A DNA stretch of 64,000 nucleotides, taken from NCBI GenBank assembly GCA_000004695.1, contig CM000151.3, positions 2,080,001 through 2,144,000 on the forward strand, read 5' to 3'. This DNA is from Dictyostelium discoideum. Lineage: Eukaryota. This document shows positions 1-56,400 of the stretch, piece by piece. The notes beneath the pieces are model-generated. The model was not told where the DNA came from. It ran no database searches and saw only the letters and a program-made list of their open reading frames with translations. Made by a program: the position numbers and the translations under genes. Position 1 is the stretch's first letter. Each line of letters opens with the position of its first letter.

Positions 1-535
1 GCTGCTTCTAAATGACCAATTGAACTTTTAATTGATCCAATTAATAATGGTTGTTGACTTAAGGTGGAATTATTTGAAGAATGTGTTTTAAAAACTCTTG
101 ACATTCCATCCAATTCAACTGGATCACCAGTTGGTGTACCGGTACCATGTGCTTCAATATAAACTATATCTTCAAGTTTCACAGTTCCATTGGTTGATGA
201 AAATGCATTATTAACATTATCAGCTTGTGATATTGATGATGGTGAATAAAAGTTTTGTTTATCTTTTAAACCGTTACCATCAACATTTGAACTTGCACCT
301 TTAATAACACAATAAATGTTATTACCATCTGCAACTGATTGTTTTAAACTCTTTAAAACTAATAACGCAACACCTTCTCCTCTAACGAATCCATCTGCAC
401 TTTCATCAAATGTCATACATTTGCCTTGACTTTTACTTAACATATTCAAATATGAAAAAGATTTTGATGAATTTGTTTCTAAAAATCATAAAATAAAATA
501 AAATATGTTAGTATTTAAAAAAGTTTAAAATAGAG

Positions 536-577
<42 letters not shown>

Positions 578-1242
578 ATACCAAATAATGAATTTACACC
601 TCCAACAATTGATAAATTTGAGAAACCACTTTTAATTGATTGATAGCCTAATCTTATTGCATTTAATGATGATGAACATGCAGTATCTATAGTTATTGAT
701 TCACCAGAGAAATCAAAACAATGTGATATACGATTTGCAATGGTACTTAATGCCGATCCAAAAACGTTTGTTTGTGTTGAATTTGGATTTTTGCTAATAT
801 CTTTATAATCAACTGATGTACAACCAATGAAAACTGATGTTTTTGAACCACGAATTTTGATTGGATCAATATTTGAATCTTCTAATGCTTCCCATGTACA
901 TTTTAATAATAATCTTTGTTGTGGATCAATAGTTGATACTTCAGATGGATTAATACCAAAAAATAATGGATCAAATGATTTCCATTCATCAAGTGGTAGT
1001 AAACCTGCATTTCCATTTGAAATTTCACCCAATTCATTAAAATTATCGCTCCATCTTTCAGTGGTTTTAACAACACCATCAAATCCATTCATTAAATTAT
1101 TCCATAATTCTTTTGTTGAATCATTTGATTTACTTAAATCTCCTGATGGTAATCTGAATCCAATTCCAATAATTGCAATATCATCCTCGTTTTCATTTGG
1201 TTTCGCTAGTTTATAAGATGATAAGTTAGTATTGTTTGTCAT
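1..1242 (-). CDS. Type I polyketide synthase, 5' part only (ketosynthase domain). The gene runs off the left edge. Exon 1 is 582..1242 with ATG at 1242; the intron is 481..581 (GTATGT...TTTTTAG); exon 2 is 1..480 (partial).
   Basis: Translation gives [15 protein letters not shown]...[16 protein letters not shown] (KS active-site Cys) ...GGVNSLF | ETNSSKSF...[16 protein letters not shown]...[10 protein letters not shown]...GHLEAA. It is about 90% nt-identical to the 5' end of the complete PKS at 55150..56401. The upstream part of ORF 508..1287 (MFFFLFL...) is poly(T)/intron read-through. Confidence 0.85.
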
Positions 1243-1847
1243 TATTAAAAAAAAAAGTGAAAAAGTTAAAAATAAAAAAAAAAACAAATTTAAAATGATA
1301 GAAAGTTAATTATTGTAAGGTTGAAAAAATAATGGAATACAAATAAAAATAATTTCTATTTAAATAATTGGGTACAAAAAAAAAAAAACTACATTTTAGG
1401 GAATTTACGATTTTAGATAGGTGTATGTCGTGAAAAAAAAAAAAAAATTTAATAAAAAAAAAAAAAAAAAGTCTTTTTGTCGGAAAAATGTATTATGAAA
1501 ATAAAAAATTAAACCCCACATTAACATATTAATTAATTATTGGATTCACACTAAAATGTTAAATTTTTTTTTTTTTTTTTTTTCAAAAATTCTTTAAATT
1601 TATAAAGATTTTCGAAAAAAATAAAAAATAAAAAAATAAAAAAAAAATCAAATAATTTTATTTGCCAAATCTCATTATATCTGAAATTAAATCTCTAATT
1701 TGAAAATATTTTTGTAAGCTTTATCTTTTGCTTGAAAATAATTTTTTACAAGATAAGAAAAATATATTTTGTTGTTTTTTTTTATGGGAGTAGATCAACC
1801 CAAACTTTTATTTTTTTTTTTTTTCTGGTCTGGTTTTATGAAACTCG

Positions 1848-1934
1848 TCAATGGGTTTGTTTTTGTTTTTTTAATTGTGGGTGTTGAGATTTTTGATAAA
1901 TTGGTTTAATATTTTGAAAATTATTTTCAATTTC

Positions 1935-1991
<57 letters not shown>

Positions 1992-2099
1992 TGGTTGTTG
2001 TTGTTGTTCATTTGGTTGTTTAGGTTGCTTTGGATGTTGGGGTTGTTGTGGCGGTTTTGCTTGTTTTGCTCGTTGTTCTCTTGGTAGTTTTGGTTGTTT

Positions 2100-2180
<81 letters not shown>

Positions 2181-2426
2181 TGGTTGTTGTTGTTGTTTTG
2201 GTTGTTTTGGTTGTTTTGGTAGTTTTGGTTGTGGTTGTTCTCTTGGTTGTTCTGTTTGTGTCGATTTTTGTTGTTGCTGTTGTTGTTGATATTGTTTAAG
2301 ATGCTGTTGGATTAAAGCTTGATCTTGGTCTTCCAACTCTTGTGTGGTTTGGTATTGAACCTGTTGTGCTTTCATTTCAAGTTCAGGTTTAAAATTATTA
2401 AACCTGTTTGATTTATTTTGATAATG

Positions 2427-2519
<93 letters not shown>

Positions 2520-3841
2520 ATTAAAAATACTATTTTTATTATTATATGAACTATTATTATATAAATTATTATTATATAAATTATTTAAACAATCTTTAAT
2601 ATCATCAGAAGATTGTAGTTTTAATTCTGAATTAAAGAAATGATTATTTCTAAAGGTATTAATTAATTTATATTTAAGAGGAGATATATTTCCGCTATTG
2701 TTATTGTTATTATTATTACTATTATTATTATTAAATAGCTCTTCATAAAATTCAATTGATCTATTTGGAAGTATATTAAAAAATAAAGTTGGAGAGAATT
2801 GTAATTGTGATTGTTGATAAGGTGTTAATTTTGATTTATCAGTTTTAGTATTAAATAGAGTTGTTAGAGTATCAATTGCATCTGATTTTCTAAATTCTTT
2901 CTCCATTCTCTTTCTATCCATTATATTAAAATGTGGTGTTTCCTTATAAATTGGATGATAAATGGTTGGAAATAAATGTTTATTCGAATAGTCAATTAAT
3001 AATATACCAAATAATAATGGTACTGGTGGTAATGGATTCTTTAAAATATTTGAATAATTTTGAATTTTTAATAATTCTCTTTCAATTTCACAAATATCAA
3101 AATTATTATCATTATTACTATTATTATTATTATTATTATTATTTAGAAATCTAATTGGAAAATTCTTAAAAACTTCTGATGAAATAACTGATTTAATTGG
3201 AAAACTAAAATTAAAATCATTACATTTACCACCAAAATAATTTATGTGCCAAATTAAACCATAAAGATAATGATTTAATAAAATGTCTTTTTTACTATAA
3301 GCTGCTGCTGTAGTTGTTGTTGTTGTTATTGTTTCCTTTTCATTCATTTTAACATCTCCATCTTCATTTTCAATTTCATTTTCAATTTCATTCTCATTTT
3401 CAATTTCATTCTCATTTTCAATTTCATTTTCTTCAAAATCTTCATCTTCGTCTTGATTATCATCTTCATCTTCATCATTCTCATTACAACCATCATCCTC
3501 TTCTTCACTATTATCATCAGCATCATTATCATTACAACCATTTTTAACAGAAGTGAATAAATTGTATAATTTATAAATATATTTCTCTTTAATAATATTT
3601 ATATTTGATTCCCAAAATGGATGATTTATAGATAAAAATGATCTAATTAAATAATCTATATCATTTGATGAATCTACTATTTTATTTTCAATGATGATAT
3701 TATATCTTGTTTTTATTTTACTATTACTACCATTTCCCTTATCTTTTTCACATTTAAAATTTTGAGTTGGTTGACTTATTCCTTTTGATAAACAATAATA
3801 ATTACCTGCGTTATTAAATAATGATTTTAATATTTGAGGTG

Positions 3842-3937
<96 letters not shown>

Positions 3938-3970
3938 GCTGTTGCTGTTGTTGATTATTGTTAACATCGC

Positions 3971-4055
<85 letters not shown>

Positions 4056-5389
4056 AAAACGATTACGATAAAATAAACGTGGTTGTGAAGATTTTCCAAT
4101 TAATCTAAATAATAAATCTAAATTTATTAAACCTGTTTCTTCATTATATAATGGTTTCTTAATTTTACAATATTCACTCCATGCTGAGCCTATATTATAT
4201 GATGATACTTTTGGTAAATGATCAGTACCCATTAAAAATGTTAACATTACGAAATCAACTATTGCTTGTCTTCTTTTACTAATATCTTCTTCTTCCTCTT
4301 CTTCTTCCTCCTCTTCTTCTTCAATTTGCACCCCTTCTTCTTTTTCCTCTGTTGCTATTCCTTCACCTTCTCCTTCCACTTCTCCTCCTGATTTTTTTTG
4401 TTGTTTTTGTTTTTTTTGTTTCTTTTTATAACATTGTTGATAAATTTTATCTCTAATTTTATCAATTTTAATAATTTCTTCAGAATCTTTATTATAAATA
4501 TAAACATTTTTATATTTTGATAATAATGAAAATAATAAAATATCTGAATCACTAATAATAATAATAATAATAATAAAAATAATATTAATAAATGATTGAT
4601 GATAAACTATTATTATTATTGTTATTATTATTATTTTAATTAATACATACCTTGAAACTATTGTAAATGAATCATTTATTGGATAATTTGAATTTAAAAT
4701 TTGTTCGAAAATTTTAAATTCTCCTTCACCAATTCTATCAGATGCAGAAATAAAAATCTTTTTTGCAAAATATAATTTATTCTTTGTATAAAATATTAAA
4801 AAATCTTTTAATTTACCCATAAATGTAGTACCTGGTGTGAATTCTAATGTTGAGAATGAGCTATCAAATGATTTTAAATCATTTTCATTTAAATAATCAT
4901 AATCGTGAAGTTGAGGTGATTGTTGTTGTTGCTGTTGTTGCTGTTGTTGTTGCTCTTTATTTCTATTTATAAAATATTTTAATTTATCTATATTCCCATT
5001 CTATATAATAATAAATAATAATAATAATAATAAAAATGTTGTATACTACTATTAGTAATTGATGTATATATTTTATATTTTATATTTTATATTTTTACCT
5101 TTAATCTTCTTTCTCTTTGTAATATCATTTTTGATCTAGGACCAGGACCATCAATACCAAAGAATACGGAATGTTTAACACGAACTTTTCTTAAAATTCC
5201 ATCTATAAAAGATTTTAATATTCTAAAAACATTTACTTCTGTATTTAATTTGGAATTATCTCCCCTTTTAACTGATTTATGTAAATAATTATTTAAATCT
5301 ATATATACATGATCGGTGGTAATTTCTTTTACTTTTTCAACACAACCAAATTGTTTACCCATGAATAAATTTAATCCCTCAATACCCAT
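1848..5389 (-). CDS. Divergent XRN-family 5'-3' exoribonuclease-like protein with N/Q-rich insertions. Three exons: 5099..5389 (ATG at 5389), 4651..5000 and 1848..4551. Introns are 5001..5098 and 4552..4650.
   Basis: Exon 1 reads MGIEGL...DLNNYLH...GIDGPGPRSKMILQRERR (XRN N-terminal DG.APRAKMNQQR.RR). Exon 2 reads ...FDSSFSTLEFTPGTTFMGKLKDF...SASDRIGEGEFKI (FDSN.ITPGT.FM; GEGEHKI motif with H replaced by F). Exon 3 reads SDSDILLFSLL (GADADL), FVMLTFLMGTDHLP (FFVGNDFLP) and HYLYGLIWHINYFGGKCNDF (W.YYP.HY). Splice junctions keep frame, with GTAAAA and GTATGT donors. Long (CAA)n and (AAT)n coding tracts. Confidence 0.7.
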
Positions 5390-5727: not shown

Positions 5728-7495
5728 TTATAAAGAGGTACCACTAAATATGGAGAAAGGGTTAGATGGAGTATTCTGATTTTGATTTATTGTGATTGGT
5801 GACCACTCTCCAAATAATGATTGTGATTGTGACTGTGATTGTGGTTGTGTTTGTGGTTGTGACAATTGATTAAATTGTTTTGTTGGATTATTTTGTTGTT
5901 GAACTGATAATGGCCCAAATGATGTAAAAGGTAGTTGTTGTTGCTGTTGTATTTGTTGTTGTTCATTTTCATCATCTTTAAAGTTTGAAATTGTATTAAA
6001 CATTTCCCTTAATGATTTCAAATTACCTTGATTATCATTGTTTTTAATGTTATCATCATCTTCCTCATCTTCATTATTATTATTATTATTATTGTTGTTA
6101 TTGTTATTATTATTATTATTTTTATCAGAAGTTGAGGTTGTTGTTGTTGTAGTTGTGAATATTGATTTATTTGATAACTTTTGAATTTGATTTTGAATTT
6201 GATTTTGAATTTGATTTTGTTGTTGTTGGTGTTCTAGTATTAAAACTCTTTTCATTAAATCTTGAATTAATTTATCCTTTTTTTTATTCTCTTTATAGAA
6301 AGAATCTCTAGTTAATGAATTTGAATGTTTTATTATTGAAATTTCGAAATTCTGATTCACATTATTTTGTTGAATTATAGTTTCAAGTTTTTTAATTTTA
6401 TTTTCTTGTTTCTTTAATACAATCGATACCAATTCATTATGATATTGATGATTTCTAATGAAATGTTTTGATAATTCACTCCTTTTCATTAATTCATTAC
6501 ATGGTGATAATGGTATTATTGATGATGATAAAGATGATGATGATAATGATTGATTTGAGTTGTTTTCATCACTATCATTATTATCATTATCATTATTATT
6601 ATTATTATAAATAATTTTTAATGATTTAAATGGACATTCAATTTTAATTTCTTTACAATGATTTTCAATATGATTTTGTAATTTTAATCTTGTAAATTGT
6701 AAAGAACAATGTTGACAAGTAATTAAAACTTTTAAACATTCAAAGAGGATATGACCTTGCATTTGTTTCATTTGAACAGATTCATCACAATGGGTACATT
6801 TTTGAATGATGAAATCACATTGACTTTCATGTTTATCCCTTTCATTAAATCTAATTATTTCATTACATTGATTATTTATTGAACATTTGATAAATCTAAA
6901 TTCACATTTACTTTCATGTCTATCAATTTCATCAATTGTAATAATTTCTTTACATCCATTAAAGTTATTACTATTATCAAAATTTAAATAATTTGGACAA
7001 TGAATCTGCAATAATAAATTTTGAAATTATTAAATTGTTAAATATGTTAATTTTAATATTAATTTTTTTTTTGGAAAATGTGAATGTGTGTGTGTTGGGA
7101 AGCGTGAGATTCAACTTGGGAAATTTTATTTTATTTTTTTTTTTTTAAAAAAAGATTTATTTAATATATATAAAAGTTACTTTAATAGATTCAGATATTG
7201 ATTTAATAATAAATAAATTATTTGAAAGAGTATTCATTGATTGAATTTGAATTCTGCAAGTTGGACATTCACTTTTAATTTCTAATATACTTTCCCAACA
7301 AGTTAAACAAAAACAATGACCATTAATACATTGTAATGCTTTCATTCTATTTGGTATTAAACTACTAATAAGTAAACCTTCACAAATTTGACATTTAAAA
7401 TTATCTGAAAATGAAATTTCTTTTAAATTATTTTCTATACTTTCATTTTTTATTATTATAAGTTTATAAATTGGTATATCTCTACCCAATTTCAT
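5728..7495 (-). CDS. RING-finger + TRAF-type zinc-finger protein (TRAF-like). Exons 7181..7495 and 5728..7005; intron 7006..7180.
   Basis: Exon 1 reads MKLGRDIPIY...CQICEGLL...CINGHCFCLTCW...CPTCR (C3HC4 RING). Exon 2 reads IHCPNYLNF...repeated C-x-C...H...C TRAF-type fingers, a coiled coil KQENKIKKLETI, and N- and Q-rich tails. Donor GTAACT after ...SISESIK; acceptor TTATTGCAG. Confidence 0.7.
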
Positions 7496-19807: not shown

Positions 19808-21319
19808 TTAAACCATTGTTACAAGTTCTTCTCTAAATTAATTAATTTATGATTTTTTTGGTTTTTTTTTTTTTTTTTTTTTTTTGGTTAGTATAAATTA
19901 ATATTGGATTTTTTTTAAAAATAAAATTAATAAAATTAATAAAACTTACGCAGATGTTGGATGAATTGCACAAGTATTATCCAAATCCCATTTTGTACAA
20001 CCCATTTTAACAGCAACAGCAAAACCTTGAATAATTTCATCACAACCATCACCAATAATGTGTAAACCAATAACTTTTTCCTCTTTACCTAAACAAACCA
20101 ATTTCATAGAGGTTCTAACTTTATGAACTTGAACTGAATAAAACATATTGATGAATGAGGTATTGTAACATTTGATATTTTCAGTACCATACTTGGTGAT
20201 TGCTTCTTGTTCGGTTAAACCAACGGTACCAATTGGTGGATGAGAGAATACAACAGTTGCAACATTTTCATATTCGAATTTCAAATCGGATTTTCCATTG
20301 AAAAGACGTTCAGAAAGACGACGACCAGCAGCGATTGCAACTGGTGTTAATAAAAAGTTACCACAAATATCACCAACTGCATGGACACCTGGTACATTTG
20401 TATTTTGGAATTCGTCTACTTTAATGAAACCACTTTGTTCTGTCAATTGAATACCAGCCTTGTCAATACCCAAATCATCAGTATTTGGTACACGACCAAT
20501 TGCCCAAATTACACATTCAACTGGTGGTAATTTTACACCTGCGTTTGTGGTGGCAATGATTCTCTTTCCATCGACATCTCTTTCCAATGATTTAATGGAT
20601 GCTTCAGTTACAAATTTGACACCATCGTCAGTCATTTGTTTCAAAAGGGTAGTGTGTAACATTTCATCAAAAGTACGAAGGAATTGTTTTTGACGGATCA
20701 CCATTGTTGTTTCGGAGCCTAATGAATGTAAGACACCAGCCAATTCCACTGCGATATATCCAGCACCGACTACCAATGTTGATTTTGGTAAATCTTCCAA
20801 CTCAAAGAATCCATCTGATGTAATACCCAATTCTTTACCTGGTACATCTGGTACAGTTGGTCTACCACCAGCTGCAATTAAAATATGATCAGCTGTATAC
20901 TTTTCACCGTTGGCACCATTGACTTGAATCTCTTTTGGTCCGCTAAATCTACCATAACCATTGATTCTAACGATATTATCTTTTGCGAGATTTGAGTCAT
21001 AAATTCCATTCAAACGTTTGATATATTCATCACGTGCTTTCTTAATTGTTGGCCAATTGAATTTAACTTGTTGACCACCAAAATCAAAACCATAACTTGG
21101 TGCTGCATTAATCATCTCTTTAATGAATGATGTATTCCACATAACTTTCTTTGGTACACAACCAACATTTACACATGTACCACCTGGTCTTGTTACCTCT
21201 ACAATACCAATACGATCTCCATTACCTTTAGCATTTAAATGTTTTGCTGCTCTTCTTGCTGATGCAATACCACCTGATCCTGCTCCTAAAACTAAATATG
21301 TAAAATGATTTGTTGAACT

Positions 21320-21322
<3 letters not shown>
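19808..21322 (-). CDS. gsr: Glutathione-disulfide reductase. Main exon 19950..21322 plus a 25-nt terminal micro-exon 19808..19832; intron 19833..19949.
   Basis: [26 protein letters not shown]...[13 protein letters not shown] (redox-active CVNVGC) ...HPTSA then GTAAGT donor inside the apparent stop codon. The acceptor TTAATTTAG gives ...EELVTMV*, the canonical GR C-terminus. The symbol follows from the enzyme identity. Confidence 0.85.
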
Positions 21323-28353: not shown

Positions 28354-28886
28354 AACATCAACAATACCATTAGGATCACAAAAGCGTATAAATATTACAT
28401 CATTTTCAGGTCACAGAATTACTAGAGTAGTAAAATCTCAAAATAGTGAGAATATTTCAACCTCTTTATCAAAATCAAATATATTATTTAACGATTTATT
28501 AAAGAAACCAATTAATGAAATTTTAGAAGAGATAGAGAATATTGTAAAATATTTTTATTAATATATTTATATTTATATATTATAGTAATAATAATAATTA
28601 TAATAATTATAATACTAATATTTTATTTCTCAGGAATCATTAAAATTAAAATCAGAATTAATTAAAAATTCAAATTCATTAACGCCAACCAAATCAAAAG
28701 GAGTTAGTGAAGAGATAGTAAAGAATAAAGACAATAGATTATGGGTAGATAAATATGCACCAACATCATTTCATGATTTACTTAGTGATACAACTATGAA
28801 TTTAGAAGTACTAAATTGGTTAGAATTATGGGATCATATTGTATTTGATAAACCGTTATCAAAAAATTTAATAATGCCTTCAACTT

Positions 28887-28959
<73 letters not shown>

Positions 28960-29430
28960 TAGTAGTAGTACAGGTGGTGGATATTTTAATAAATTTAATA
29001 GTAAATTTACAACAAGTAGTAATAGTAATCAACAACATCAAAACCAAGGTCAATATTTATTACAAGAGGATGGAACACCAATTGCAAAGATTATACTTTT
29101 AACAGGTGGACCAGGTTTAGGTAAAACCACATTAGCACATGTACTCGCTAAACAAGCCAATTATAATCCAGTGGAAATCAATGCAAGTGAAGATAGATCA
29201 GGTGAAGCATTTGAAAGTAAATTATTATCAGCAATTGAAATGAAATCATTATTCAATGATAATAAACCAAATTGTTTAATTATTGATGAAATTGATGGTA
29301 TTTCAGGTCGTGATAATGGTCCAATTGAATTATTAATTAAATTAATTGATAATAGTTTAAAATTAGGTAATCATAAAAAGTCAACTACAAACCCAGCCGC
29401 TAAAAAATCAGCTGGAAAAGATACAGAATC

Positions 29431-29470
<40 letters not shown>

Positions 29471-31066
29471 CATGAAGACCAAGATGAAGATGATGAAAAA
29501 TCAACAAAAACCAAAGGTAAAAAAGGTAAAAAGAAAGGATTTACAACAAGATTACTTAGACCAATCATTTGTATTTGTAATGATCAATATGTACCATCAT
29601 TAAGAAAACTTAGACAAAAAGCAATGGTATTTGATTTTCAAGCACCAAAGAAAAATGATTTATTATCAAGATTAAAGGTAATTTGTTCAAACGAAGGATT
29701 ATCAGCAACTGATGCAACTTTGAATGCATTAATCGATATGACAGGTAGTGATATTCGTGCGTGTATCAACTCTTTACAATTTATTAAATCAAAAACTACT
29801 GTATTAAATTCAGAATTATTAAAGAATAAATCAAATATTGTAATTGGTCAAAAAGATATGGAAAAAGGTTTAGTTGAAATTTGGAATAATATTTTTAAAA
29901 GTTCAAGTATTACAAGTTCAACTAATAAATTATCAAAATATTCAAATACTATATCATCATCGTCATCATCAATTGATTCTATTAATAGTATTAGTAATGA
30001 TTATTTAAATCAATTAGATTTTCAAATTGGTGCATGTAATCAAGTTGATAAATTAATTGATGGTGTTTATGAAAATTATTTAACAAATATGTCAAGTGAT
30101 TATACAATGCAGAAAACAATGGATTGTTTGGATTGGATGGTATTTGGTGATCAAATGTTAAATGTTCATGCTGATGAAAAGTATCGTTCTCTAGTTCCAT
30201 TGGCAATTCATCAACGTTGTTCAACTTATTCACCAAAGATACAATTACCTCATTCCGATTATGATAATTTCATTAAAAAGAAATCAAACTCAAATATTAA
30301 AGATTCCTTTTACTCAGATTTACCAGCCACAATCTATTCTTATCTTACAAAGAAATGCTTTGTCATTGATTTCATTTACCCATTTGTTGATATACTTTCC
30401 TTACCAGTACGTGTTACAAATGTTCAATTGTATAGCCAAACAGAGAAAACCAATTTAAATCGTTTGGTTGAAATTATGAAATTCTATAGATTATCTTATA
30501 AGTTGGAAAAAGTAAATAATTTTATCAAACAACAACATCAACCACAAAAAAAATTAGTTGATAGTCTGGATGAAAAAGATGATGAAGAATTACAACGTAA
30601 TAAAAAACAACAAAATCAACAAACTCAAGATATAACAATGCAATATAAATTGGAACCACCTATTGATACTTTATTATATTTTCAAAATCAAAATCCAAAA
30701 ACTATGGTAAAACATATTCGATTATCTCATAGTCAAAAACAAATTATTTCTACAGCTGTACAACAATATAAACCACCTCAAAAATCAACTACTACCACCG
30801 CCACCGACACCACCACTACTGTTAAAAATGATGAAAATCAAAAACAAAAAGATCAATTGAAAAAACCAATACCAACAAAAGAAGAATTCAAAAAACCTTT
30901 GGTACCAACAGTTTTAAAAGATTTCTTTGGTAGAGTCATTCAAACATCACCAGAAACTAAAAAGAAAACTATGGAAGCAACAGCTGGTCCAAATATTAAA
31001 TATAGATTCCAAGAAGGTTTTACAAATGCTGTTAAGAAAACAGTGTATGTAAAAGATTTCTTGTAA
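28163..31066 (+). CDS. ctf18: Chromosome transmission fidelity protein 18 (CTF18), an RFC-like AAA+ ATPase of the alternative clamp loader. Exons 28163..28543 and 28634..31066; intron 28544..28633.
   Basis: ...DNRLWVDKYAPTSFHDLLSDTTMNLEVLNWLELWDHIVF (Ctf18 signature) ...IILLTGGPGLGKTTLAHVLAKQANYNPVEINASEDRS (Walker A) ...CLIIDEIDGI (Walker B). GTAAAA donor after ...EEIENI and TTTCTCAG acceptor, in frame with ORF 28796..31066. Confidence 0.85.
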
Positions 31067-31170: not shown

Positions 31171-33956
31171 TTATTTATCAAATGAATAATTTGGATGTAT
31201 AATTAATATTCTATGATCAGGATATTGATTTGGTACTAATACAACAAGAGAATTGTCTTTGTTTATCATTTTATTGATAACCATTTTAGTGATTTTAGTT
31301 TCTTTTGTAACTTCATCATCAGTGATTATGCCAGACTCCAATTGATCTTTAATGTACCAATCGATAAGATCAATTTGTTTTATACCAGATTTCTCTTTTC
31401 CTGATTGTTTAATTTGTAAAACTAATAATTTTGATAATTGTGAATATTTTGAAAAATTCATAGTTAATTTGCCAATACCATCATCACCATCTTCTTCAGC
31501 ATGGTTATCGTTATCATTTTCAACATTTTTGACTAAATCATCATCATCATCACCTAAAATTACATCATTTGTTTCAACATGAACTATTGATTTCTCTAAT
31601 AATCTTGCAGCTTCATTTACATATTTTGGTAAAACTTTTGTATCTAAATGTAAACGAGCCAATGATTCCGATAAACGAACTAATGATTCCAATTGTCTAA
31701 CTGTGATTCTGTATGCTGGAGTTTTTGAACCACTGGTATCCATTTGACGTAATCTATCGTAATGTCCCACCAATAGTTGTACACTTTCATCTGGAATGGT
31801 TGGACAAATGAATTTTGTATACTTTATATAGTTTTTAATTTCAGTTGCAGAGAATGGTGCGTTGAATGCTTTTTCACGTTTTTGATGAGTCAACACGATA
31901 TGCTCTGCTATTCTATGATCAGATTCTGGATTACATTCATCCAATACCACAAAGAATAAATCGAAACGTGACATTAGTGGACCACCAATATTTAAATTTT
32001 GTTTTAAAGTTTTATTACGATCATAACGACCACCAATTGGATTTGCTGCTGCTAAAATACTAGTACGAGCATTCAATGATGCATGAATACCCGCCTTTGC
32101 AATGGAAATGGTTTGTTGTTCCATTGCTTCATGAATTGCAACTTGGTCACCTGGCTCCATTTTATCAAATTCATCAATACAACAAATACCATTATCTGCC
32201 AACATCAATGCACCTGCTTCAATATTAAAATCACCACTTTCTTGATCCTTTACAACTGTTGCCGTTAAACCTGCTGCACTACTTGCTTTACCAGATGTAT
32301 AAACTGTACGTGGTAAAAATGATACTAAATACTTTAAAAATGTACTCTTTGATGTTGATGGATCACCAACAATACAAACATTAATATCACCTCTTAATCT
32401 AATCTTTTCTGGTGTTTTCTTATGTACACCACCAAATAACATTAATAATACTCCTCTTTTAACTAAAATAAATAAATTAATAAATTAATAATTTTTTAAA
32501 TAAATATCTATATAAATTATTATTATAAATTATTATTATTATACTTTACTTTCTTCATGACCAAAAATTGAAGGACAAATTGAATTTACTAAATTTTGAT
32601 AAATTTTTTTACTTTTAATCATTTTCTTTAAACTATCTTTTTCTTTTTTTGGTAAAGAATCTAAAAAGGATTCTTTTGATTCAGGTTCTAAATCTTCATC
32701 AATGATACCAACTGAATGAGAATGACCACCATGATTATCACCAGATTCTTTACGATTGATTGAGGAAAGTGTTGAAACATTTGAACGAACACTTTGAGAG
32801 AAGAAACAAACTCTATAATTCATTTCTCTAACACCTAAATCTTTTAAACCACCAACACCACCAAAATCATCCTTACCATTTGCATTTGAACCTTCCTTTG
32901 TGCTCGATGCTACACCCTTGATAATTTGAGCATTATTACCAATGGACATTTTAGAAACATCTGGAATTACATTCATCGTACCAACAAATGTACATGTATC
33001 ACCAGCTCTAGCGGTTTCAACCGAATCACCACGTAGAATGATCTCTAATGATCTTGGTACGCTACCACCTGGAATTTCGGAATTGTTTTCTTGAACTCTA
33101 ACTTTTTGCCAATCAGTGAATGTCGACTCCTCTAAATTTATCTTCCAACGACGTTGATTTGAACATAACGGATTCAAACATTTGGTTGGTTCTGTATATT
33201 TAAATTGTTGGGCTATTGGTAACGATGAGGTATTACAATCCTTACAAATGAATGACCCAATAACCAACTCTGGTCTAACCTCTGACGTTCTCGTTACTGT
33301 ACCCGATATAGAACATAATGATCCTATCCTACTTGATCTAAGTTCTCTAATATGTACAAACGTTGAAACATTATAACAACAAATTGATAATACTATCCTT
33401 TCTTTATTAACTCTCTCCATAAATGATGGAAAATATTTTTGTATAAAAATTGATAATCCTTGTCTTATCGCTGGTTCTAATCTAATATTTATATAATTTT
33501 ATAATTAATTTAAATTCAACCAATTTTTTTTTTTTTTTTTTTTTTTCCTTTTTTTTTTTTTTTTTTTAAATCATACCTAAAATATTCCATTAATAATGCT
33601 TTTCCTAAACCTTTATCAAATTTCTCTAAATGTAAGAAATCTATATATAAACTTGATTTATCATTTTTTATCATTCTTTCAACTTGTTGACGATAATAAC
33701 TTTTATCTATTTTCTCTTTTTTAATACCATTTTCGTCATATTCATTTTCATTTTCATTATTATCTTCATTATCTTCATTATTATTATTATTATTATTTTT
33801 ATCAATTTTTTTTTTTAATTTAAAATTATTTAAAAATTCTAAAAATTTATTTTTTGTCCATTCTTTTGCTTCATCTTGTACCTTTTGAAATTGATGTGTT
33901 TGATTTGGTCTTATTGTTGCTTTATCTTCATCAACTCCAGCATCTGTATATATCAT
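31171..33956 (-). CDS. mcm6: DNA replication licensing factor MCM6. Exons 33577..33956, 32550..33481 and 31171..32462; introns 33482..33576 and 32463..32549.
   Basis: The N-terminus is ...FQKVQDEAKEWTKNKFLEFL...LLMEYF. It continues RLEPAIRQGLSIF..., the zinc finger CKDC...CLNPLC, ...IFGHEE | IKRGVLLMLFGGVHKK, Walker A GDPSTSKS, IDEFDKM, and an arginine finger SRFDLFF. The C-terminus VLPKYVNEAARLLEKSIVHVE...HPNYSFDK matches MCM6-specific tails. Donors GTATGA and GTAAAG, phases consistent. Confidence 0.9.
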
Positions 33957-43897: not shown

Positions 43898-46411
43898 TTA
43901 CTCTAAATTTTTAATTAAATTATAAATTAAACCAGATTGTAAAATTGATTTGCAAGTATTTTCTTTTGCAGTTTTTTTATTTTGACCAGATTTAAAATGA
44001 GAATGTGCAGCTTCTTTATTTATATAGAAAGTAGCAATAGCATTAAAAAAACCAGAACCATCAGGAGTATGTTCCCAAGCTATACCAAAATCAAATGTAT
44101 GTCTTTTAACTTGAATAACCATCTCTTGAACCAAAGCACTAGCAGAAGCAAAATAGGAATTTGTATCCATTTCTTCATCAACTTGATTAACTTGAGTTGT
44201 ATAGTTTTGTTGTTTTAAAGATATTGGAAGTTCACCAGTTTTTAAGAAATTAATAGCCTCTTCTAAATATCTTTCTTGATTTTTAAAGAACTCATAGATG
44301 TTATCCTCTCTTGGATCATCAACTTTGACAATACCATAGAAATAACTATCCCTATTTCTTAATCTACCCCTTGATTGAATATTAGCAGTAACGGTTGTTG
44401 GTGGATCTAATCTAATTACAATATTACATTCTGGTACATCGAATCCTTCTTCCACTACACTAGTTGCAACTATAACATTACATTGATCACTTCTAAACTC
44501 TTCTATAGCCTTCTTTTGAGATGATATTGACATTCCACCAATAGAACCATGACCAACTACTAAATTTGGTTTAATAAAAGAGAATCTATCACCCATTCTT
44601 AATTGATCCAAAAGTGAATAAACTTTCTTTGCTACGTCTCTTGTTTTTACAAATATGATTGCTTTTAAATCATCACTCTTTTTTTCATCCAAAATTTGTA
44701 ACGCAATCTCTAACTTTGAAATACTATCCGCAATCTCTTCATCACAAGGTAACGAATGAACCATTGCTAAAATCTCTGATTGAAGTTCTACATCATCAAT
44801 ATTTGAAATCTCTTCAATTAAAAAGGATTTTAAATTTAAACCAACTGGAATTGCACTACCAAACATTTTAAAATTAATAAAATCATTAATTTTTTCAAAA
44901 AATGATGATAAAAACTTATTTAAATTATGATTTTGAGTACTACTATTGGAACCACCACCACCACCACCAACACCTAAACCTTTTAAAGTATTACTATCAA
45001 TTACTGAAGTAACAGAATCAAATAATTCTTGATTATTACTAAGATTTGGTTTATATTTTGAAATTAAATCTTTTAAGATTTGAATTGAGTGACGTTCTAA
45101 ATTATTTGTTGGAATTGGTATGATTTTAATATTCTTTTGATTAATATATGGAATGATTGATTGATTAGTTGGTTTTATAATTTCACAACGACTAACTTTT
45201 GAAATTAATTTCAAGGATAATAAAGTATTGAAAAAATCTTTTTTACCAGCTGGTGACGCAGTTAAACCTAAAATCTTTGGATGACAAATCTCTGGAATCG
45301 TATTTAATTTATCACGTAATAATTTAGCGAATGAATGCTCTTTAACTATATGATGAGCTTCATCGATAACAATCAAACAGAAACTAAGTATATTTAAATC
45401 ACCATTTGATAAAAGTTTATTGAATAAATCACCAATCACCACCAAAACATCAAATCTTTGCTTCAATTGAACTGGTTTAAATGTTTCACCGTGAGCTGAT
45501 AACACCTTTAACCCCGTCTCTGTCTCTATTACGTCTGATTGTTGGATTACCAATGGGATTCTATCTACAATGAAAACTATTTGCTTTGAAGGATTCAATT
45601 GCTTCATTTTCTTTATCACCAAACATGATATTAAAGTCTTACCTAAACCAGTTGGTAAACAACATATTATATCCTTTTCCATTGATTTTCTATAGAGTTC
45701 ACATTGATAATCTCTTGGTTTACTCTTATTCATCTCCATTGGTTTACCATCATCACCCTGTTGTAATGTTTTTATAATTGGCATACCAATTGTTTTAATT
45801 TGACCGAGTGTAAGATTATTACAATTTTCATCTTGAAAAATGCTATTCATAGTATCAACTCTTTGTTGTAAATCACCAAGTGTTCTCTTTAATCTTTCAA
45901 TTTCATTATCCTTTTCCATTTGAGTTGGTTCATTAAAATGTAAATAACTAAAACCACCACTTAATAAATTTCCATCATTTTTTTGTTTTTCAATTAATTC
46001 ATCTTTAATTTTATTTTTATCTATACTAATAAATTTTGAAAATAATGAATCTATTGATTGTTTTGTTTGATATGTTAATTGTTGTGGTTGTTGTGGTGGT
46101 GGTGATTCTATTTCTTGTTCTTGTTGTTGTCTAGTTTTTTTTTGTTCTTGATATTTATTATTTAAATCTTCTCTTCCCTGTTGATTTAAATAATTTAAAA
46201 CTTTTATTGCGCAACATGATTCTGCTGTTTTTTTATTTTTATACCAATCGGAATATACAATTTTATTGTTATGTTTTGAATTAATTTCACCAACGCGTAT
46301 GTGTGTACGATATTCTCTCTCGTGGTCAGGTCCTCTACACTCTGAATGGTATACTGGTAAATATCCTATTCTTTTTTGTTGAATATAAGTTTGTAAATCA
46401 TTTTTAGTCAT
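43898..46411 (-). CDS. DExH-box (Dicer/RIG-I-type) RNA helicase flanked by N- and C-terminal dsRNA-binding domains, HelF-like. Single exon.
   Basis: The N-terminal dsRBD reads LQTYIQQKRIGYLPVYHSE..GPDHEREYRTHIRVGE...AESCCAIKVLNYL. Helicase motifs: CCLPTGLGKTLIS (I), VIDEAHH (II), GLTASP (III), ATSVVEEGFDVPECN, QSRGR (VI). The C-terminal dsRBD reads FGIAWEHTPDGSGFFNAIATFYINKEAAHSHFKSGQNKKTAKENTCKSIL. Confidence 0.75.
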   Translation of the reverse strand: MTKNDLQTYIQQKRIGYLPVYHSECRGPDHEREYRTHIRVGEINSKHNNKIVYSDWYKNKKTAESCCAIKVLNYLNQQGREDLNNKYQEQKKTRQQQEQEIESPPPQQPQQLTYQTKQSIDSLFSKFISIDKNKIKDELIEKQKNDGNLLSGGFSYLHFNEPTQMEKDNEIERLKRTLGDLQQRVDTMNSIFQDENCNNLTLGQIKTIGMPIIKTLQQGDDGKPMEMNKSKPRDYQCELYRKSMEKDIICCLPTGLGKTLISCLVIKKMKQLNPSKQIVFIVDRIPLVIQQSDVIETETGLKVLSAHGETFKPVQLKQRFDVLVVIGDLFNKLLSNGDLNILSFCLIVIDEAHHIVKEHSFAKLLRDKLNTIPEICHPKILGLTASPAGKKDFFNTLLSLKLISKVSRCEIIKPTNQSIIPYINQKNIKIIPIPTNNLERHSIQILKDLISKYKPNLSNNQELFDSVTSVIDSNTLKGLGVGGGGGGSNSSTQNHNLNKFLSSFFEKINDFINFKMFGSAIPVGLNLKSFLIEEISNIDDVELQSEILAMVHSLPCDEEIADSISKLEIALQILDEKKSDDLKAIIFVKTRDVAKKVYSLLDQLRMGDRFSFIKPNLVVGHGSIGGMSISSQKKAIEEFRSDQCNVIVATSVVEEGFDVPECNIVIRLDPPTTVTANIQSRGRLRNRDSYFYGIVKVDDPREDNIYEFFKNQERYLEEAINFLKTGELPISLKQQNYTTQVNQVDEEMDTNSYFASASALVQEMVIQVKRHTFDFGIAWEHTPDGSGFFNAIATFYINKEAAHSHFKSGQNKKTAKENTCKSILQSGLIYNLIKNLE

Positions 46412-46876: not shown

Positions 46877-49800
46877 TTACTTTTTTTGTTTTAAATGATT
46901 AATAATCATTTGATTTATAATTTCTAAATTATTTTCTTGAATGGTGTCAGTATTACTATTACTATATTTTGTAATTATATTATGAAGTTGTAAATATTTA
47001 TAAACACAAGAAGAATTATTTGAATCTGTTAAAATTTGAATCCAATCATTAAATTCAATCTGTTTACAATTAAATTCACATTTTAATATTTGATTAATCT
47101 GTTGTGAATTTATATTATTATTATTACTATTATTATTATTTAAATTAATTGTATTAAATAATAATTTTCCTTTTTCATTATCATGCTCATAATAATTTTG
47201 ATTATTTATTTGATTTATAATTAAATTTGATAAATGATTAATTGGAATGGTTGGATATGATGTAGAAACGTTTGGATAAAATCCAATTGAATGACAAGAT
47301 TGTAAAAATAATTGTAATAATTCATTTTCATTTCCTAAACCAGTTTCAATATTTGAAAAAATTGGAGGAATTCTTATCATTGTTGATGGTATATTAAATT
47401 TTATTGAACAATCTTTTAGAAAATGTTCAATTAATAAACTACTTTGAATTTTTCCACTTGATAATGGTAATTTTTCAATTGATTCAAAATTTGGAATTTC
47501 AATACTATTATATTCATTTTCATTAATAAATTCATTTGATATTCCTAAATAAATATATATTGATGATATATTTATAATTGAAATTTTATTATTATTATTA
47601 TTATTATTATTATCATTATTATTACAATAACCATTAATTATTAAAGATTTAATTAATTCTTTAACCAAATTTAATTCAGTTTCATTAAATTCTTGTTCAA
47701 ATAAAATTGAATCTTGAAATGAATCACTTGAAACAATAATTATTAAATTTATATCATTATTTTTGATGAATAATTGATTATAGTCTTTTTCTGATGAAAC
47801 TGATATAATATTAATTTTTGAAATTTCATTTTGATTTAAATTAAAATATAATTGATGGTACTTTAGGCTTTGAATTATTAAATCAATTGATGTATTTAAA
47901 CAATAAACTATAGAACAATTTGAATCTTTAACTAAATTAAATAATAAATAAGTACTTAAATAACCACCACTTGAAAAAGGGAATAATATTCTTTTATTAT
48001 TTTTACTAGTACCACCATTTTTAGTAATATTTACATACGATGATGTTGATGATGAAAATTCATTACCAATAACTTTTAATTTAATTTGTTTTTTCCAAAA
48101 TTTTAAATTTTTAACATTATTATTTTTACTTTTACCCCCAATGAATGAACCAGTTTTAATATTTTCATTATTATTTGATTGTTGATTACTATCTTTTATT
48201 TTTTTATTATCAATAGCTGTAATGATAATTTTAATTACTAAAGAGATTGTATTATTTTGAATTTGTTGAATTGTAATAATATTTGGAGAGATTTCTTTAT
48301 CTATCCAATTTTTTAATTGAACAGTTAATAATGAGTCTGCACCATAATCAAGTAATCGTAAATCTTGATTAATTTTAGATGATTCAATTGAAAGGAATTC
48401 TGATATTTTATTAATGAAAATATCTTTAATATTTAATGAATCTACAACTTTTCCACCACCACCACTGCCACTACTACTATTGGAACCACCACCACCACCA
48501 TCGATTGAATTAATAATAAAATCAAATTTTTGTTTAGGAATTTGAGCATTTACTTTAAAAGCTGGAAAATTGAAATTACAAATTAAAAGATTTGTTGATA
48601 AATGTTGATTTTGAATTTGTAAATCTAATGAACCTAAAATTAAATTTGTAGAGATTGGATTTAAACCTTGACCAACTAACATTTCACCAACTGATTCAAA
48701 TCTTGATACAAATCCTGCATCACCTAAAGAACCATAATTTGTACAAATTGATGGTAACCCAATTGATTTTCTAAATCTTGATAATGAATCTAAAACATTA
48801 TTCGCACAAACATAAGAACATTGTTTTGAAGAACCGATGATTGAAGCAATTGAAGATGCCATTACAAATTGTTTTAATTTCCAATTCCTCTTTATCGATT
48901 GATTATGTAAATTAATTGCACCAAATGTTTTTGCACCATGTGAAATATCCAAACTTTCCATATCAATTTTATTAACTTTTCTAGAAACTTGTTGAAATGC
49001 AAAATGAAAAATTGAATCAACATTATTTATCAATGGATTATCTTTTAATATTTGATCGATTGATTCATTTACTAAACTTTCATTACAAATATCAATACTC
49101 TTAAAATGAAATCTAATATTTGAATTATTGTTTACTAATAATTCTAATTCCCATTTCATTGGTGATTTTGAAAATATTATAATATCTTTAACACAATCTG
49201 AAAATTTAACAATCCATTTTAATATCTCTAAAACTATCCCCGTTTGACCTGTAACTAATATTGTTGAACCTAAATTATCATTATTTATTTTATAATTTGA
49301 TTTTAAAATTGGTTCCTTAACATCAATACTACCACTACCACTACTACTACCACTACTACTACTACTATTGAAATTATTATTTTCAATTAATTTATTTATT
49401 AAATTAATATTATTATTTACAATAATTTTACCAATATGTTTACGTTCATTTATAAATTCAATTGCTTCTTTTATTTTTAAATTTGAATATTCATTAATTG
49501 GTATTAAATTTAATTGATTATTTTCAATTGCATTTGATATTTGTAAAAATAAAATTTGAAGTTTTCTTTTATTTATAAATAATAATTCAACATTATGATA
49601 ACCATAATTATATTTGAATTTACTAAAATCTATATATTCATTTGGATTTAAATGAGTGATTGATAAATCAACGATTCTACCACCACATTCCAAACATTTG
49701 AAATTTGAATCTAAATAATCACTTGATAATGTATTCAATATTAAATCAACACCTTTTTTATTTGATCCCAATTGTTTTAATTTTAATTTAATTTGTTTTA

Positions 49801-51037: not shown

Positions 51038-51118
<81 letters not shown>

Positions 51119-54898: not shown

Positions 54899-54960
<62 letters not shown>

Positions 54961-56353: not shown

Positions 56354-56400
<47 letters not shown>

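What the first reader, a model, noticed from the sequence alone, without database searches (positions are those of the whole stretch)
1848..5389. Highly divergent XRN-family exoribonuclease paralogue with a His-to-Phe change in the GEGEHKI motif
All acidic catalytic positions can be matched: D in VYIDLNN, D in IDGPGPRSKM, GEGE, SDSD, and D in LMGTDHLP. However, the almost invariant GEGEHKI is GEGEFKI. The protein is split by three introns and padded with 30-50-residue poly-Q and poly-N tracts. The C-terminal 600 aa barely resemble Xrn1 or Xrn2. It looks like a third, fast-evolving XRN-like gene rather than the canonical xrn1 or xrn2 orthologue.
Basis: partly seen in the sequence, partly recalled or inferred. 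Interest (0 to 1): 0.55.

Follow-up and report, generated by a model that had tools for sequence, protein, structure and literature searches.

The report
Non-canonical XRN exoribonuclease gene in Dictyostelium
This is an intact gene for an RNA-degrading enzyme of the XRN family; its odd His-to-Phe change turns out to be the normal state of a large, widespread and unstudied branch of that family, so it is not a sign of decay.

Summary
The gene is real. It lies on the minus strand at 5389..1848, has three exons and two introns (not three), and encodes 1114 aa. It hits Pfam XRN_N at E=1.8e-41 over the full profile. All seven catalytic acidic residues, the 5'-phosphate pocket (K87, Q91, R94, R95) and the stacking His37 are present. 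GEGEFKI is confirmed (F192, codon TTT).

The His-to-Phe change is not a private quirk. An exhaustive profile search found many XRN-like proteins with a hydrophobic or aromatic residue at this position (I, L, V, F, W, Y). They come from Amoebozoa, Heterolobosea, chytrid fungi, green algae, a haptophyte and giant-virus-like contigs, and their catalytic residues are nearly invariant.

The position co-varies with the residue after the last catalytic Asp. Canonical XRNs have His+Phe and the non-canonical group has hydrophobic+Tyr. The window protein and two D. purpureum relatives have aromatic+His (F192+H325).

Many relatives carry a bona fide dsRBD between the two conserved XRN core regions. In the window protein this insert is only a degenerate remnant.

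The D. purpureum orthologue shares both intron positions and a downstream neighbour gene. Dictyostelids carry two to three such genes in addition to canonical Xrn1 and Xrn2. The protein is most likely an active 5'-3' exoribonuclease, but its substrate is unknown.

The parts
5099..5389 (-). Exon 1 (aa 1-97). Starts MGIEGL and contains D31, H37, D80, K87, Q91, R94 and R95.
   Evidence: An in-frame stop lies 3 codons upstream of the ATG. The alignment offsets to 3pie place these residues at Xrn1 D35, H41, D86, K93, Q97, R100 and R101.
5001..5098 (-). Intron 1 (98 nt, GT..AG, 9.2% GC)
   Evidence: D. purpureum has an intron at the same position, after RERRLK.
4651..5000 (-). Exon 2 (aa 98-214). 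Contains the Q11 tract, FTPGT and GEGEFKI.
4710..4730 (-). GEGEFKI motif (E189, E191, F192, K193). The F192 codon is TTT at 4716-4718.
   Evidence: F aligns to the His of GEGEHK in Xrn2 and Xrn1.
4552..4650 (-). Intron 2 (99 nt, GT..AG, 8.1% GC). It is in-frame and stop-free in this species.
   Evidence: D. purpureum has an intron at the same position, and there it contains stop codons.
1848..4551 (-). Exon 3 (aa 214-1114 plus the TGA stop), a single uninterrupted ORF.
4218..4223 (-). D324-H325 of LMGTDHLP: the last catalytic Asp followed by His. Canonical XRNs have Phe at this second position and the non-canonical group has Tyr.
3843..4052 (-). Poly-N (27) and poly-Q (37) tract inserted after conserved region 1.
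3603..3842 (-). Degenerate dsRBD-like insert (aa 451-530), predicted helix, three strands, helix.
   Evidence: AF2 topology, block pLDDT 72-93. The homologous insert in relatives hits Pfam dsrm and PDB dsRBDs. The window sequence itself gives no dsrm hit.
3303..3536 (-). Acidic low-complexity insert (aa 553-630).
   Evidence: An acidic insert sits at the same place in D. purpureum.
2748..3302 (-). XRN conserved region 2 (aa 631-815): YLYGLIW..YFGGKC, PLPPVPLLFGILL, LTPYQQSQLQFSPTLFF.
   Evidence: The family profile aligns to K. lactis Xrn1 up to residue 664. Foldseek gives a full-length alignment. Pfam XRN_M is sub-threshold on its own.
1851..2516 (-). C-terminal tail: N29 run followed by a Q/P/K-rich basic region (KQP repeats).
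   Evidence: D. purpureum (KPQ repeats), P. violaceum and A. subglobosum orthologues have tails of similar composition.

Best explanation
The gene encodes a catalytically competent, Mg2+-dependent 5'-to-3' exoribonuclease for 5'-monophosphate RNA. It belongs to an old non-canonical branch of the XRN family, distinct from Xrn1 and Xrn2.

Shown:
- It has the complete XRN core (conserved regions 1 and 2).
- All seven metal-binding acidic residues are present (D31, D80, E189, E191, D215, D217, D324).
- The 5'-phosphate pocket (K87, Q91, R94, R95) and the base-stacking His37 are present.
- Phe192 replaces the canonical His as part of a group-wide, co-varying pair. Canonical XRNs pair His with Phe after the last catalytic Asp. 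The non-canonical group pairs a hydrophobic residue with Tyr. This protein and its two D. purpureum relatives pair an aromatic residue with His (F192 + H325).

Inferred:
- The two positions pack together behind the metal site and share one polar group, so the active site is compensated rather than damaged.
- The insert between the two core regions descends from a dsRBD that is intact in many relatives. There it probably tethers the enzyme to structured or double-stranded RNA. In dictyostelids it has lost the recognisable RNA-binding signature and may be only structural.
- The basic Q/P/K-rich tail suggests nuclear or nucleolar RNA processing. This echoes the diverged nucleolar XRNE of trypanosomes but was not tested here.
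For: - XRN_N scores E=1.8e-41 over the full profile.
- The residue mapping to Xrn1 D35/H41/D86/K93/Q97/R100/R101 follows from the alignment offsets. The roles of these residues are given in PMC8850482 and PMC5499597.
- In 169 aligned XRN-like proteins, nearly every sequence with a residue aligned at these positions keeps the acidic and pocket residue. The exception is the 'His' site, which is I36, L34, V27, F23, H20, Y6, W4, C4.
- The exhaustive profile search returned 8455 hits, canonical XRNs included.
- The family profile matches Xrn1 residues 1-664 at E=5e-80 and Xrn2 at 2.6e-79.
- The AF2 core model has pLDDT 82.5 and pTM 0.81, and Foldseek matches it to Rat1/Xrn2/Xrn1 at E~1e-19 over about 650-700 columns.
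- Co-variation table: H with F 42/46, L/I/V with Y 112/113, and His at the partner site only in the window protein and D. purpureum P0031 and P0035.
- The D. purpureum orthologue has an intact full-length ORF, both introns at the same positions, conserved core blocks at 37-61% identity, and a downstream PKS gene in the same order.
- Evidence for a dsRBD in relatives: Pfam dsrm at 1e-9, 1.4e-7 and 2e-6. The insert profile hits PKR, RNase III, ADAR2 and Staufen.
Against: - No biochemical or expression data could be obtained.
- The role of the canonical His in GEGEHK could not be found in the literature available here, so its replacement could still change activity or specificity.
- The window's own insert gives no dsrm signal. 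The isolated-insert model has no significant Foldseek match (best E=1.3).
- Long homopolymer and acidic inserts interrupt the fold, and their effect is unknown.
- The deep phylogeny is only a neighbour-joining tree with weak support, so monophyly of the non-His group is not established.
Confidence: 0.72

Rival explanations
1. It is a catalytically dead pseudo-nuclease. Loss of the almost invariant His of GEGEHK disables hydrolysis, and the protein survives as an RNA-binding or scaffolding factor.
For: Among the aligned XRN-like proteins with the canonical His-type motif, His at this site pairs with Phe (or Tyr in 4 of 46) at the partner site. The protein also carries long low-complexity inserts.
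Against: All seven acidic residues, the invariant Lys after the substituted site and the 5'-phosphate pocket are kept here. They are also kept in essentially every aligned non-His relative across several eukaryotic supergroups and giant-virus-like contigs. That pattern is not expected for a dead enzyme. A co-varying partner position points to compensation.
Confidence: 0.12
2. It is simply the canonical Xrn2/Rat1 (or Xrn1) orthologue of this species, made hard to recognise by Dictyostelium low-complexity expansion.
For: The best single-sequence PDB hits and the top Foldseek hits are Xrn2/Rat1. One relative, from Acrasis kona, is labelled 'RAT1' by its source.
Against: D. discoideum has separate Xrn1 (XP_643245.1) and Xrn2 (XP_646407.1) with far stronger reciprocal hits (PMC5862402). 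The family profile is equidistant from Xrn1 (5e-80) and Xrn2 (2.6e-79). No Xrn1 C-terminal domains were found. Other dictyostelids carry two to three copies of this type.
Confidence: 0.04
3. It is a gene acquired from a giant virus by an amoebozoan ancestor. On this view the non-His XRN-likes are primarily viral enzymes used to degrade host or viral RNA.
For: Many relatives of 420-500 aa lie on dense, intron-less, ORFan-rich contigs with RNase H, PCIF1_WW, ankyrin and ubiquitin-system genes (L002). BFVD holds many giant-virus XRNs. PMC5499597 lists 32 dsDNA-virus XRN_N proteins.
Against: Viral models are no closer to the window model than cellular Xrn1/Xrn2 are (E~1e-18 in both). The nearest relatives are cellular: dictyostelids, other Amoebozoa and Heterolobosea. 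The gene has introns conserved between species and a conserved neighbour. The direction of any transfer is unresolved.
Confidence: 0.1

Closest known systems
Xrn2/Rat1 and Xrn1 (canonical XRN 5'-3' exoribonucleases; PDB 3FQD, 5FIR, 7OPK, 3PIE, 2Y35, 9E70)
   Same: The whole catalytic core is shared: XRN_N plus conserved region 2, seven acidic residues, the K/Q/R/R 5'-phosphate pocket, the stacking His and the Met-Gly N-terminus.
   Different: It has Phe instead of His after the second Glu and His instead of Phe after the last Asp. It has DGPGP instead of DGVAP. A dsRBD-derived insert and low-complexity tracts lie between the two core regions. It lacks the Xrn1 C-terminal domains. Rai1-binding features were not tested. 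It co-exists with canonical Xrn1 and Xrn2.
Uncharacterised 'Xrn1 N-terminal domain-containing' proteins: D. purpureum DICPUDRAFT_18829 and 158467, P. violaceum CYY_000544, A. subglobosum 041890, and more distantly Cavenderia DFA_04210, Heterostelium PPL_01155, Balamuthia, Planoprotostelium, Acrasis, Willaertia, Batrachochytrium BATDEDRAFT_34347, Emiliania 451138
   Same: They share the architecture, a non-His residue at the GEGE-x site, the DGP(G/A)P motif and, in most, Tyr or His at the partner site. DICPUDRAFT_18829 is the orthologue: 53% identity in the N-terminal domain, the same introns and a conserved downstream neighbour.
   Different: The dictyostelid orthologues have Trp where this protein has Phe. 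Most non-dictyostelid members keep a recognisable dsRBD. The chytrid members have an acidic linker there instead.
Trypanosoma brucei XRNE and XRNF (highly diverged XRN homologues; XRNE is nucleolar and needed for 5.8S rRNA 5' maturation; PMC3854532)
   Same: Both are extra, highly diverged XRN_N proteins that keep the catalytic residues, have no identifiable domain outside the XRN region by sequence, and carry a basic C-terminal tail.
   Different: Whether they belong to the same non-His group or have the dsRBD insert is untested, so the resemblance is a lead only.
Giant-virus XRN-like exonucleases (for example Mimivirus R528, CeV, Pithovirus, Hokovirus)
   Same: They share the XRN core fold (Foldseek E 1e-18 to 1e-9). 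The giant-virus-like contig L002 examined here carries a 473-aa relative with a non-His GESEIK motif, and several other short relatives (P0010, P0017, P0020) also lack His.
   Different: They are shorter (about 420-600 aa), have no introns, lack the tail, and are no closer than cellular XRNs.

Membership tests
XRN 5'-3' exoribonuclease family (Pfam XRN_N, PF03159) | Significant full-length match to the XRN_N profile | tested here: met
   E=1.8e-41, 142.6 bits against a cut-off of 22.9. Protein aa 1-233 match profile positions 1-238 of 241.
XRN 5'-3' exoribonuclease family (Pfam XRN_N, PF03159) | Seven conserved acidic metal-binding residues (Xrn1 D35, D86, E176, E178, D206, D208, D291/292; PMC5499597) | tested here: met
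   D31, D80, E189, E191, D215, D217 and D324 align to them.
XRN 5'-3' exoribonuclease family (Pfam XRN_N, PF03159) | Basic 5'-phosphate pocket (K93, Q97, R100, R101) and stacking His41 (PMC8850482) | tested here: met
   K87, Q91, R94, R95 and H37 are at the aligned positions.
XRN 5'-3' exoribonuclease family (Pfam XRN_N, PF03159) | His in the GEGEHK motif | tested here: not met
   Phe192 (TTT) is at this position. The same site is non-His in 148 of the 169 closest XRN-like proteins (20 have His and one is gapped there), so this feature defines canonical XRNs rather than the whole family.
XRN 5'-3' exoribonuclease family (Pfam XRN_N, PF03159) | Second conserved core region (XRN_M / CR2) | tested here: met
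   Pfam XRN_M alone is sub-threshold (20.3 bits against 23.8). The family profile aligns through K. lactis Xrn1 residue 664, and the model aligns to full Xrn2/Xrn1 cores.
XRN 5'-3' exoribonuclease family (Pfam XRN_N, PF03159) | Processive 5'-3' hydrolysis of 5'-monophosphate RNA | not testable with these tools
   This needs an enzyme assay.
Xrn1 subfamily | C-terminal domains D1-D4 (Pfam PF18129, PF18332, PF18334) following the core | tested here: not met
   At E<=1 the Pfam scan found only XRN_N and weak XRN_M. In contrast, a true Xrn1-like hit, P0012, carries these domains.
Xrn2/Rat1 subfamily | Orthology to Rat1 (reciprocal best hit; Rai1- or PAXT-1-binding segment) | tested here: not met
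   D. discoideum has a separate Rat1 reciprocal-best hit, XP_646407.1. The family profile is equidistant from Xrn1 and Xrn2. The partner-binding segment was not tested.
dsRBD (Pfam dsrm, PF00035), for the insert at aa 451-530 | Significant dsrm profile match | tested here: not met
   The window segment gives no hit. The dictyostelid-only profile gives no dsRBD hit in PDB. The insert HMM built from relatives does not hit it. The homologous insert in relatives does pass (P0043 39.2 bits, P0022 32.4, P0039 28.7).
dsRBD (Pfam dsrm, PF00035), for the insert at aa 451-530 | Alpha-beta-beta-beta-alpha fold | tested here: inconclusive
   The full-length model shows that topology with block pLDDT 72-93. 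The isolated-insert model has no significant Foldseek match (best E=1.3). The sub-threshold list includes mL44, ADAR1 dsRBD3, Dcr1 dsRBD and RNase III.

The most novel reading that the evidence does not exclude
The non-His XRN-likes form an ancient third lineage of eukaryotic XRN exoribonucleases that was lost in animals, yeasts and land plants. On this reading they keep a FEN1-like second shell of hydrophobic residue plus Tyr. They also carry a built-in dsRBD that directs 5'-3' decay to structured or double-stranded RNA ends. Possible targets are RNase III or Dicer products and pre-rRNA spacers. The Dictyostelium genes would then be unstudied components of RNAi or rRNA processing.
Probability: 0.2. 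Interest if true: 0.75.

Novelty: new variant of a known kind. Interest (0 to 1): 0.5.

Why it matters
XRN enzymes are usually described as two types, Xrn1 and Xrn2. This gene points to a further, widely distributed set of XRN-like proteins that appears to be uncharacterised. Every named member I retrieved is annotated 'hypothetical' or 'Xrn1 N-terminal domain-containing', apart from one labelled 'RAT1', and I found no paper describing them.

- The group shows that the 'invariant' His of GEGEHK is dispensable when a partner residue changes with it. That gives a concrete pair of positions to test by mutagenesis.
- Many members carry an embedded dsRBD, which suggests a substrate class (structured or double-stranded RNA) different from that of Xrn1 and Xrn2.
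- Dictyostelium is genetically tractable and has an RNAi system, so knockouts of this gene and its paralogues are feasible.
- For annotation, the result warns against calling such genes degenerate or mislabelling them as RAT1.

Tried and rejected
- The first homologue search used the whole protein with runs trimmed. Low-complexity words flooded it and it returned only 7 hits. Cleaner alignments worked better.
- The source species' own protein never appeared in the databases.
- Literature searches for 'GEGEHK', for an XRN phylogeny and for an XRN with a dsRBD found nothing describing this group.
- Jinek 2011 and Nagarajan 2013 are not held, so the structural role of the canonical His stays unknown to me.
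- The AlphaFold-DB library was unavailable.
- A dictyostelid-only insert profile gave no dsRBD hits. Foldseek on the isolated insert was not significant. I therefore do not claim a dsRBD for the window protein, only descent from one.
- I considered a sequencing error for H-to-F and rejected it. CAY to TTT needs two substitutions, and the orthologues also lack His.
- I considered a third intron and rejected it, because exon 3 is a continuous ORF in both species.
- I considered a pseudogene and rejected it. The ORF is intact at 1114 aa, and the introns and a neighbouring gene are conserved between species.
- The neighbour-joining tree resolves the window + D. purpureum 18829 pair (100%) and the addition of 158467 (82%). 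It does not resolve deep branching, so I do not claim monophyly of the non-His group.
Full report
**1. What is in the sequence**

The window has 21.8% GC. Homopolymer-rich coding sequence and short AT-rich introns point to a Dictyostelium genome. It is most likely D. discoideum or a very close relative, which is an inference.

On the minus strand, an ATG at 5389 opens a gene of three exons: 5389..5099, 5000..4651 and 4551..1848. An in-frame stop lies three codons upstream of the ATG. The gene ends at TGA 1850-1848. The coding sequence is 3345 nt, giving 1114 aa.

Both introns begin GT and end AG. They are 98 and 99 nt long with 9.2% and 8.1% GC, against 23-26% in the exons. Intron 2 is in-frame and free of stops here, so the mechanical ORF 1848..4820 reads through it. 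The D. purpureum orthologue has an intron at exactly the same place, and there it is full of stops.

**2. XRN identity**

Pfam XRN_N matches aa 1-233 across profile positions 1-238 of 241, with E=1.8e-41 and 142.6 bits. XRN_M is weak at 20.3 bits, below the 23.8 cut-off. The best PDB sequence matches are Xrn2 (5FIR 9e-15, 3FQD 5e-14) and Xrn1 (3PIE 2e-12).

The alignment offsets place the residues as follows:

| Window protein | Xrn1 equivalent |
|---|---|
| D31 | D35 |
| H37 | H41 |
| D80 | D86 |
| K87, Q91, R94, R95 | K93, Q97, R100, R101 |
| E189, E191 | E176, E178 |
| D215, D217 | D206, D208 |
| D324 | D291/292 |

The seven acidic residues are listed in PMC5499597. The 5'-phosphate pocket and His41 are described in PMC8850482. 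GEGEFKI is at aa 188-194, and F192 is encoded by TTT at 4718-4716.

**3. The His-to-Phe change is a group-wide feature**

Homologue searches immediately returned proteins with GEGEFKI(F/Y): Polysphondylium violaceum CYY_007490, Cavenderia fasciculata DFA_04210 and several metagenome or transcriptome proteins.

An exhaustive HMMER search of 1.84 billion representatives, using a profile of these proteins, gave 8455 hits at E<=1e-3, canonical XRNs included. I aligned the best 150 together with the earlier hits, 169 sequences in all. Among sequences with a residue aligned at each position, nearly all keep the acidic residue, the Lys after the substituted site, and K87, Q91, R94 and R95. The 'His' column instead reads I36, L34, V27, F23, H20, Y6, W4, C4.

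Named members come from these groups:
- Dictyostelids
- Other Amoebozoa: Balamuthia, Endostelium, Planoprotostelium
- Heterolobosea: Acrasis, Willaertia
- Chytrid fungi: Batrachochytrium, Powellomyces
- A green alga: Chloroparvula
- A haptophyte: Emiliania

All are annotated 'hypothetical' or 'Xrn1 N-terminal domain-containing', except one labelled 'RAT1'. One short relative that I examined, P0009 (473 aa), sits on a contig whose gene content looks like a giant virus. BFVD contains many giant-virus XRNs.

**4. A co-varying partner position**

I compared His-type and non-His sequences column by column and then tabulated 221 aligned proteins. The GEGE-x residue co-varies with the residue after the last catalytic Asp (G-x-D-x).

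| Residue at GEGE-x | Residue after the last Asp |
|---|---|
| His | Phe in 42 of 46, Tyr in the other 4 |
| Leu, Ile or Val | Tyr in 112 of 113 |
| Phe | Tyr 17, Leu 7, Phe 7, His 1 |
| Trp | Tyr 2, His 2 |

Only three proteins have His at the second site. They are the window protein (F192 + H325) and two D. purpureum proteins (W + H).

From memory, FEN1 and EXO1 have Ala after the second acidic residue and Tyr after the equivalent Asp ('SDY'). If so, hydrophobic+Tyr would be the ancestral FEN-like state and His+Phe the derived state of Xrn1 and Xrn2. This is a lead, not a tested result. My inference is that the two side chains pack together behind the metal site and share one polar group. 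The active site of this protein would then be compensated rather than impaired. I could not read model coordinates, so the contact itself is untested.

**5. The C-terminal part**

A profile of 40 family members tells a different story. It aligns in one stretch to K. lactis Xrn1 residues 1-664 (E=5e-80). The alignment includes the YxxGLxW..YY..GC block, the P..QL..VLP block and the final 'LSPDEK..F' block. The same profile matches Xrn2 almost equally well (2.6e-79).

An AlphaFold2 model of the protein with low-complexity runs removed (634 aa) has pLDDT 82.5 and pTM 0.81. Foldseek aligns it over about 650-700 columns to Rat1/Xrn2 (3FQD 3e-19, 7OPK, 5FIR) and Xrn1 (9E70, 3PIE, 2Y35), with TM about 0.55. 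The XRN core therefore runs to about aa 815-847. The non-XRN material is the set of inserts and the tail from about aa 870.

No Xrn1 C-terminal domains are detected.

**6. A dsRBD inside the core**

Between the two conserved regions, the model shows a helix, three strands and a helix at full-length aa 452-519. The homologous segment of relatives matches Pfam dsrm above threshold:
- P0043: 1.1e-9, 39.2 bits
- P0022: 1.4e-7
- P0039: 2.1e-6

The Acytostelium orthologue matches weakly (dsrm 0.019, DSRM_2 0.0025). A profile of 24 such inserts hits almost only dsRBD proteins in PDB: PKR 8e-9, RNase III 4e-8, ADAR2, Staufen, DGCR8, TRBP and mL44.

The evidence for the window protein's own insert is weaker:
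- It gives no dsrm hit.
- A dictyostelid-only profile finds no dsRBDs.
- An HMM built from non-dictyostelid inserts finds only the Acytostelium protein among dictyostelids (E=0.001).
- The isolated-insert model has no significant Foldseek match, although dsRBD proteins populate the sub-threshold list.

I conclude that many members of the group carry a real dsRBD. The window protein retains a degenerate descendant of it, and its RNA-binding ability is doubtful. Chytrid members have an acidic linker at this position instead.

**7. Orthology and copy number**

By BLASTP the nearest relatives are:
- D. purpureum DICPUDRAFT_18829: 53% identity over the N-terminal domain, GEGEW
- D. purpureum DICPUDRAFT_158467: 32% over the full length, GEGEW
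- P. violaceum CYY_000544
- A. subglobosum 041890

A second dictyostelid set, with F or Y at the site, is more distant. It contains Cavenderia DFA_04210, Heterostelium PPL_01155, A. subglobosum 125880, Synstelium and P. violaceum 007490. A neighbour-joining tree supports window + 18829 at 100% and the addition of 158467 at 82%. Deep nodes are unresolved.

The D. purpureum locus (L001) contains a full-length gene, although its annotated model is truncated at 310 aa. It has both introns at the same positions and the same core blocks (37-61% identity by tblastn). It also has an acidic insert, an N-rich run and a KPQ-rich basic tail. A polyketide-synthase gene lies downstream on the same strand in both species (56% identity).

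Canonical D. discoideum Xrn1 (XP_643245.1) and Xrn2 (XP_646407.1) are listed in PMC5862402. The gene is therefore one of several non-canonical XRN paralogues, not 'the third'.

**8. How it probably works**

Shown: a complete, conserved XRN catalytic apparatus.

Inferred:
- Mg2+-dependent processive 5'-3' hydrolysis of 5'-monophosphate RNA.
- A compensated second-shell pair (F192/H325).
- An ancestral dsRBD that targeted structured or double-stranded RNA and is now degenerate in dictyostelids.
- A basic Q/P/K-rich tail that may direct nuclear or nucleolar localisation.

The only experimentally studied 'highly diverged XRN' I found is T. brucei XRNE. It is nucleolar, is needed for 5.8S rRNA 5' maturation and has a Lys-rich tail (PMC3854532). 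Its relationship to this group is untested.

**9. Verdict**

The interpretation needs revision. This is an ordinary-looking but unstudied member of a broad non-canonical XRN group, and its 'anomaly' is the group's norm. It is a new variant of a known kind and of moderate interest.

Noticed in passing
window 43898-46411 (-): An 837-aa ORF with an N-terminal dsRBD (dsrm 4e-14) followed by DEAD/ResIII and Helicase_C domains. From memory, this architecture matches Dictyostelium HelF, a nuclear suppressor of RNAi. It lies about 40 kb from the XRN-like gene, and no functional link is shown.
   Followed up: partly
window 46877-56401 (-) and 508-1287 (-): There is a 3174-aa type I polyketide synthase (KS-AT-MT-ER-KR-ACP). 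The start of another PKS (ketoacyl-synt) lies just downstream of the XRN-like gene. That second PKS is conserved in position in D. purpureum (56% identity).
   Followed up: partly
window 4552-4650 (-): Intron 2 is 99 nt, in-frame and stop-free. If it were retained, it would insert 33 hydrophobic residues immediately before the catalytic SDSD motif. The equivalent D. purpureum intron contains stops.
   Followed up: partly
L001 10001-13300 (D. purpureum GL870953.1): The public model DICPUDRAFT_18829 (310 aa, 'partial') is truncated. After the two introns, the reading frame continues for roughly 1000 codons in all and covers the whole XRN core and tail.
   Followed up: yes
P0003 (Polysphondylium violaceum CYY_007490): The gene model fuses a COX17 domain (PF05051) to an XRN-like protein that lacks its first ~60 residues. 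This is probably a mis-merged annotation of two adjacent genes.
   Followed up: no
L002 (Logan SRR28423913 contig, 42 kb): A 473-aa XRN-like protein (GESEIK) sits among dense intron-less ORFans together with RNase H, PCIF1_WW, ankyrin, RING and E2 genes. This is giant-virus-like gene content. Several other relatives of 420-500 aa with non-His motifs look similar but were not examined.
   Followed up: partly
window 5728-7011 (-), 19946-21322 (-), 28796-31066 (+), 31171-32442 (-): Neighbouring ORFs are a TRAF/Sina-type zinc-finger protein with N/Q runs, a pyridine nucleotide-disulphide oxidoreductase (glutathione-reductase-like), an RFC1-like AAA+ protein and the C-terminal part of MCM6. They look like ordinary housekeeping genes.
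   Followed up: partly
221 aligned XRN-like proteins: The stacking His41-equivalent is Tyr in 36 of 169 relatives. PMC8850482 reports that His41 is needed for removal of NAD caps but not for 5'-P decay, so these members may differ in cap-related activities.
   Followed up: no
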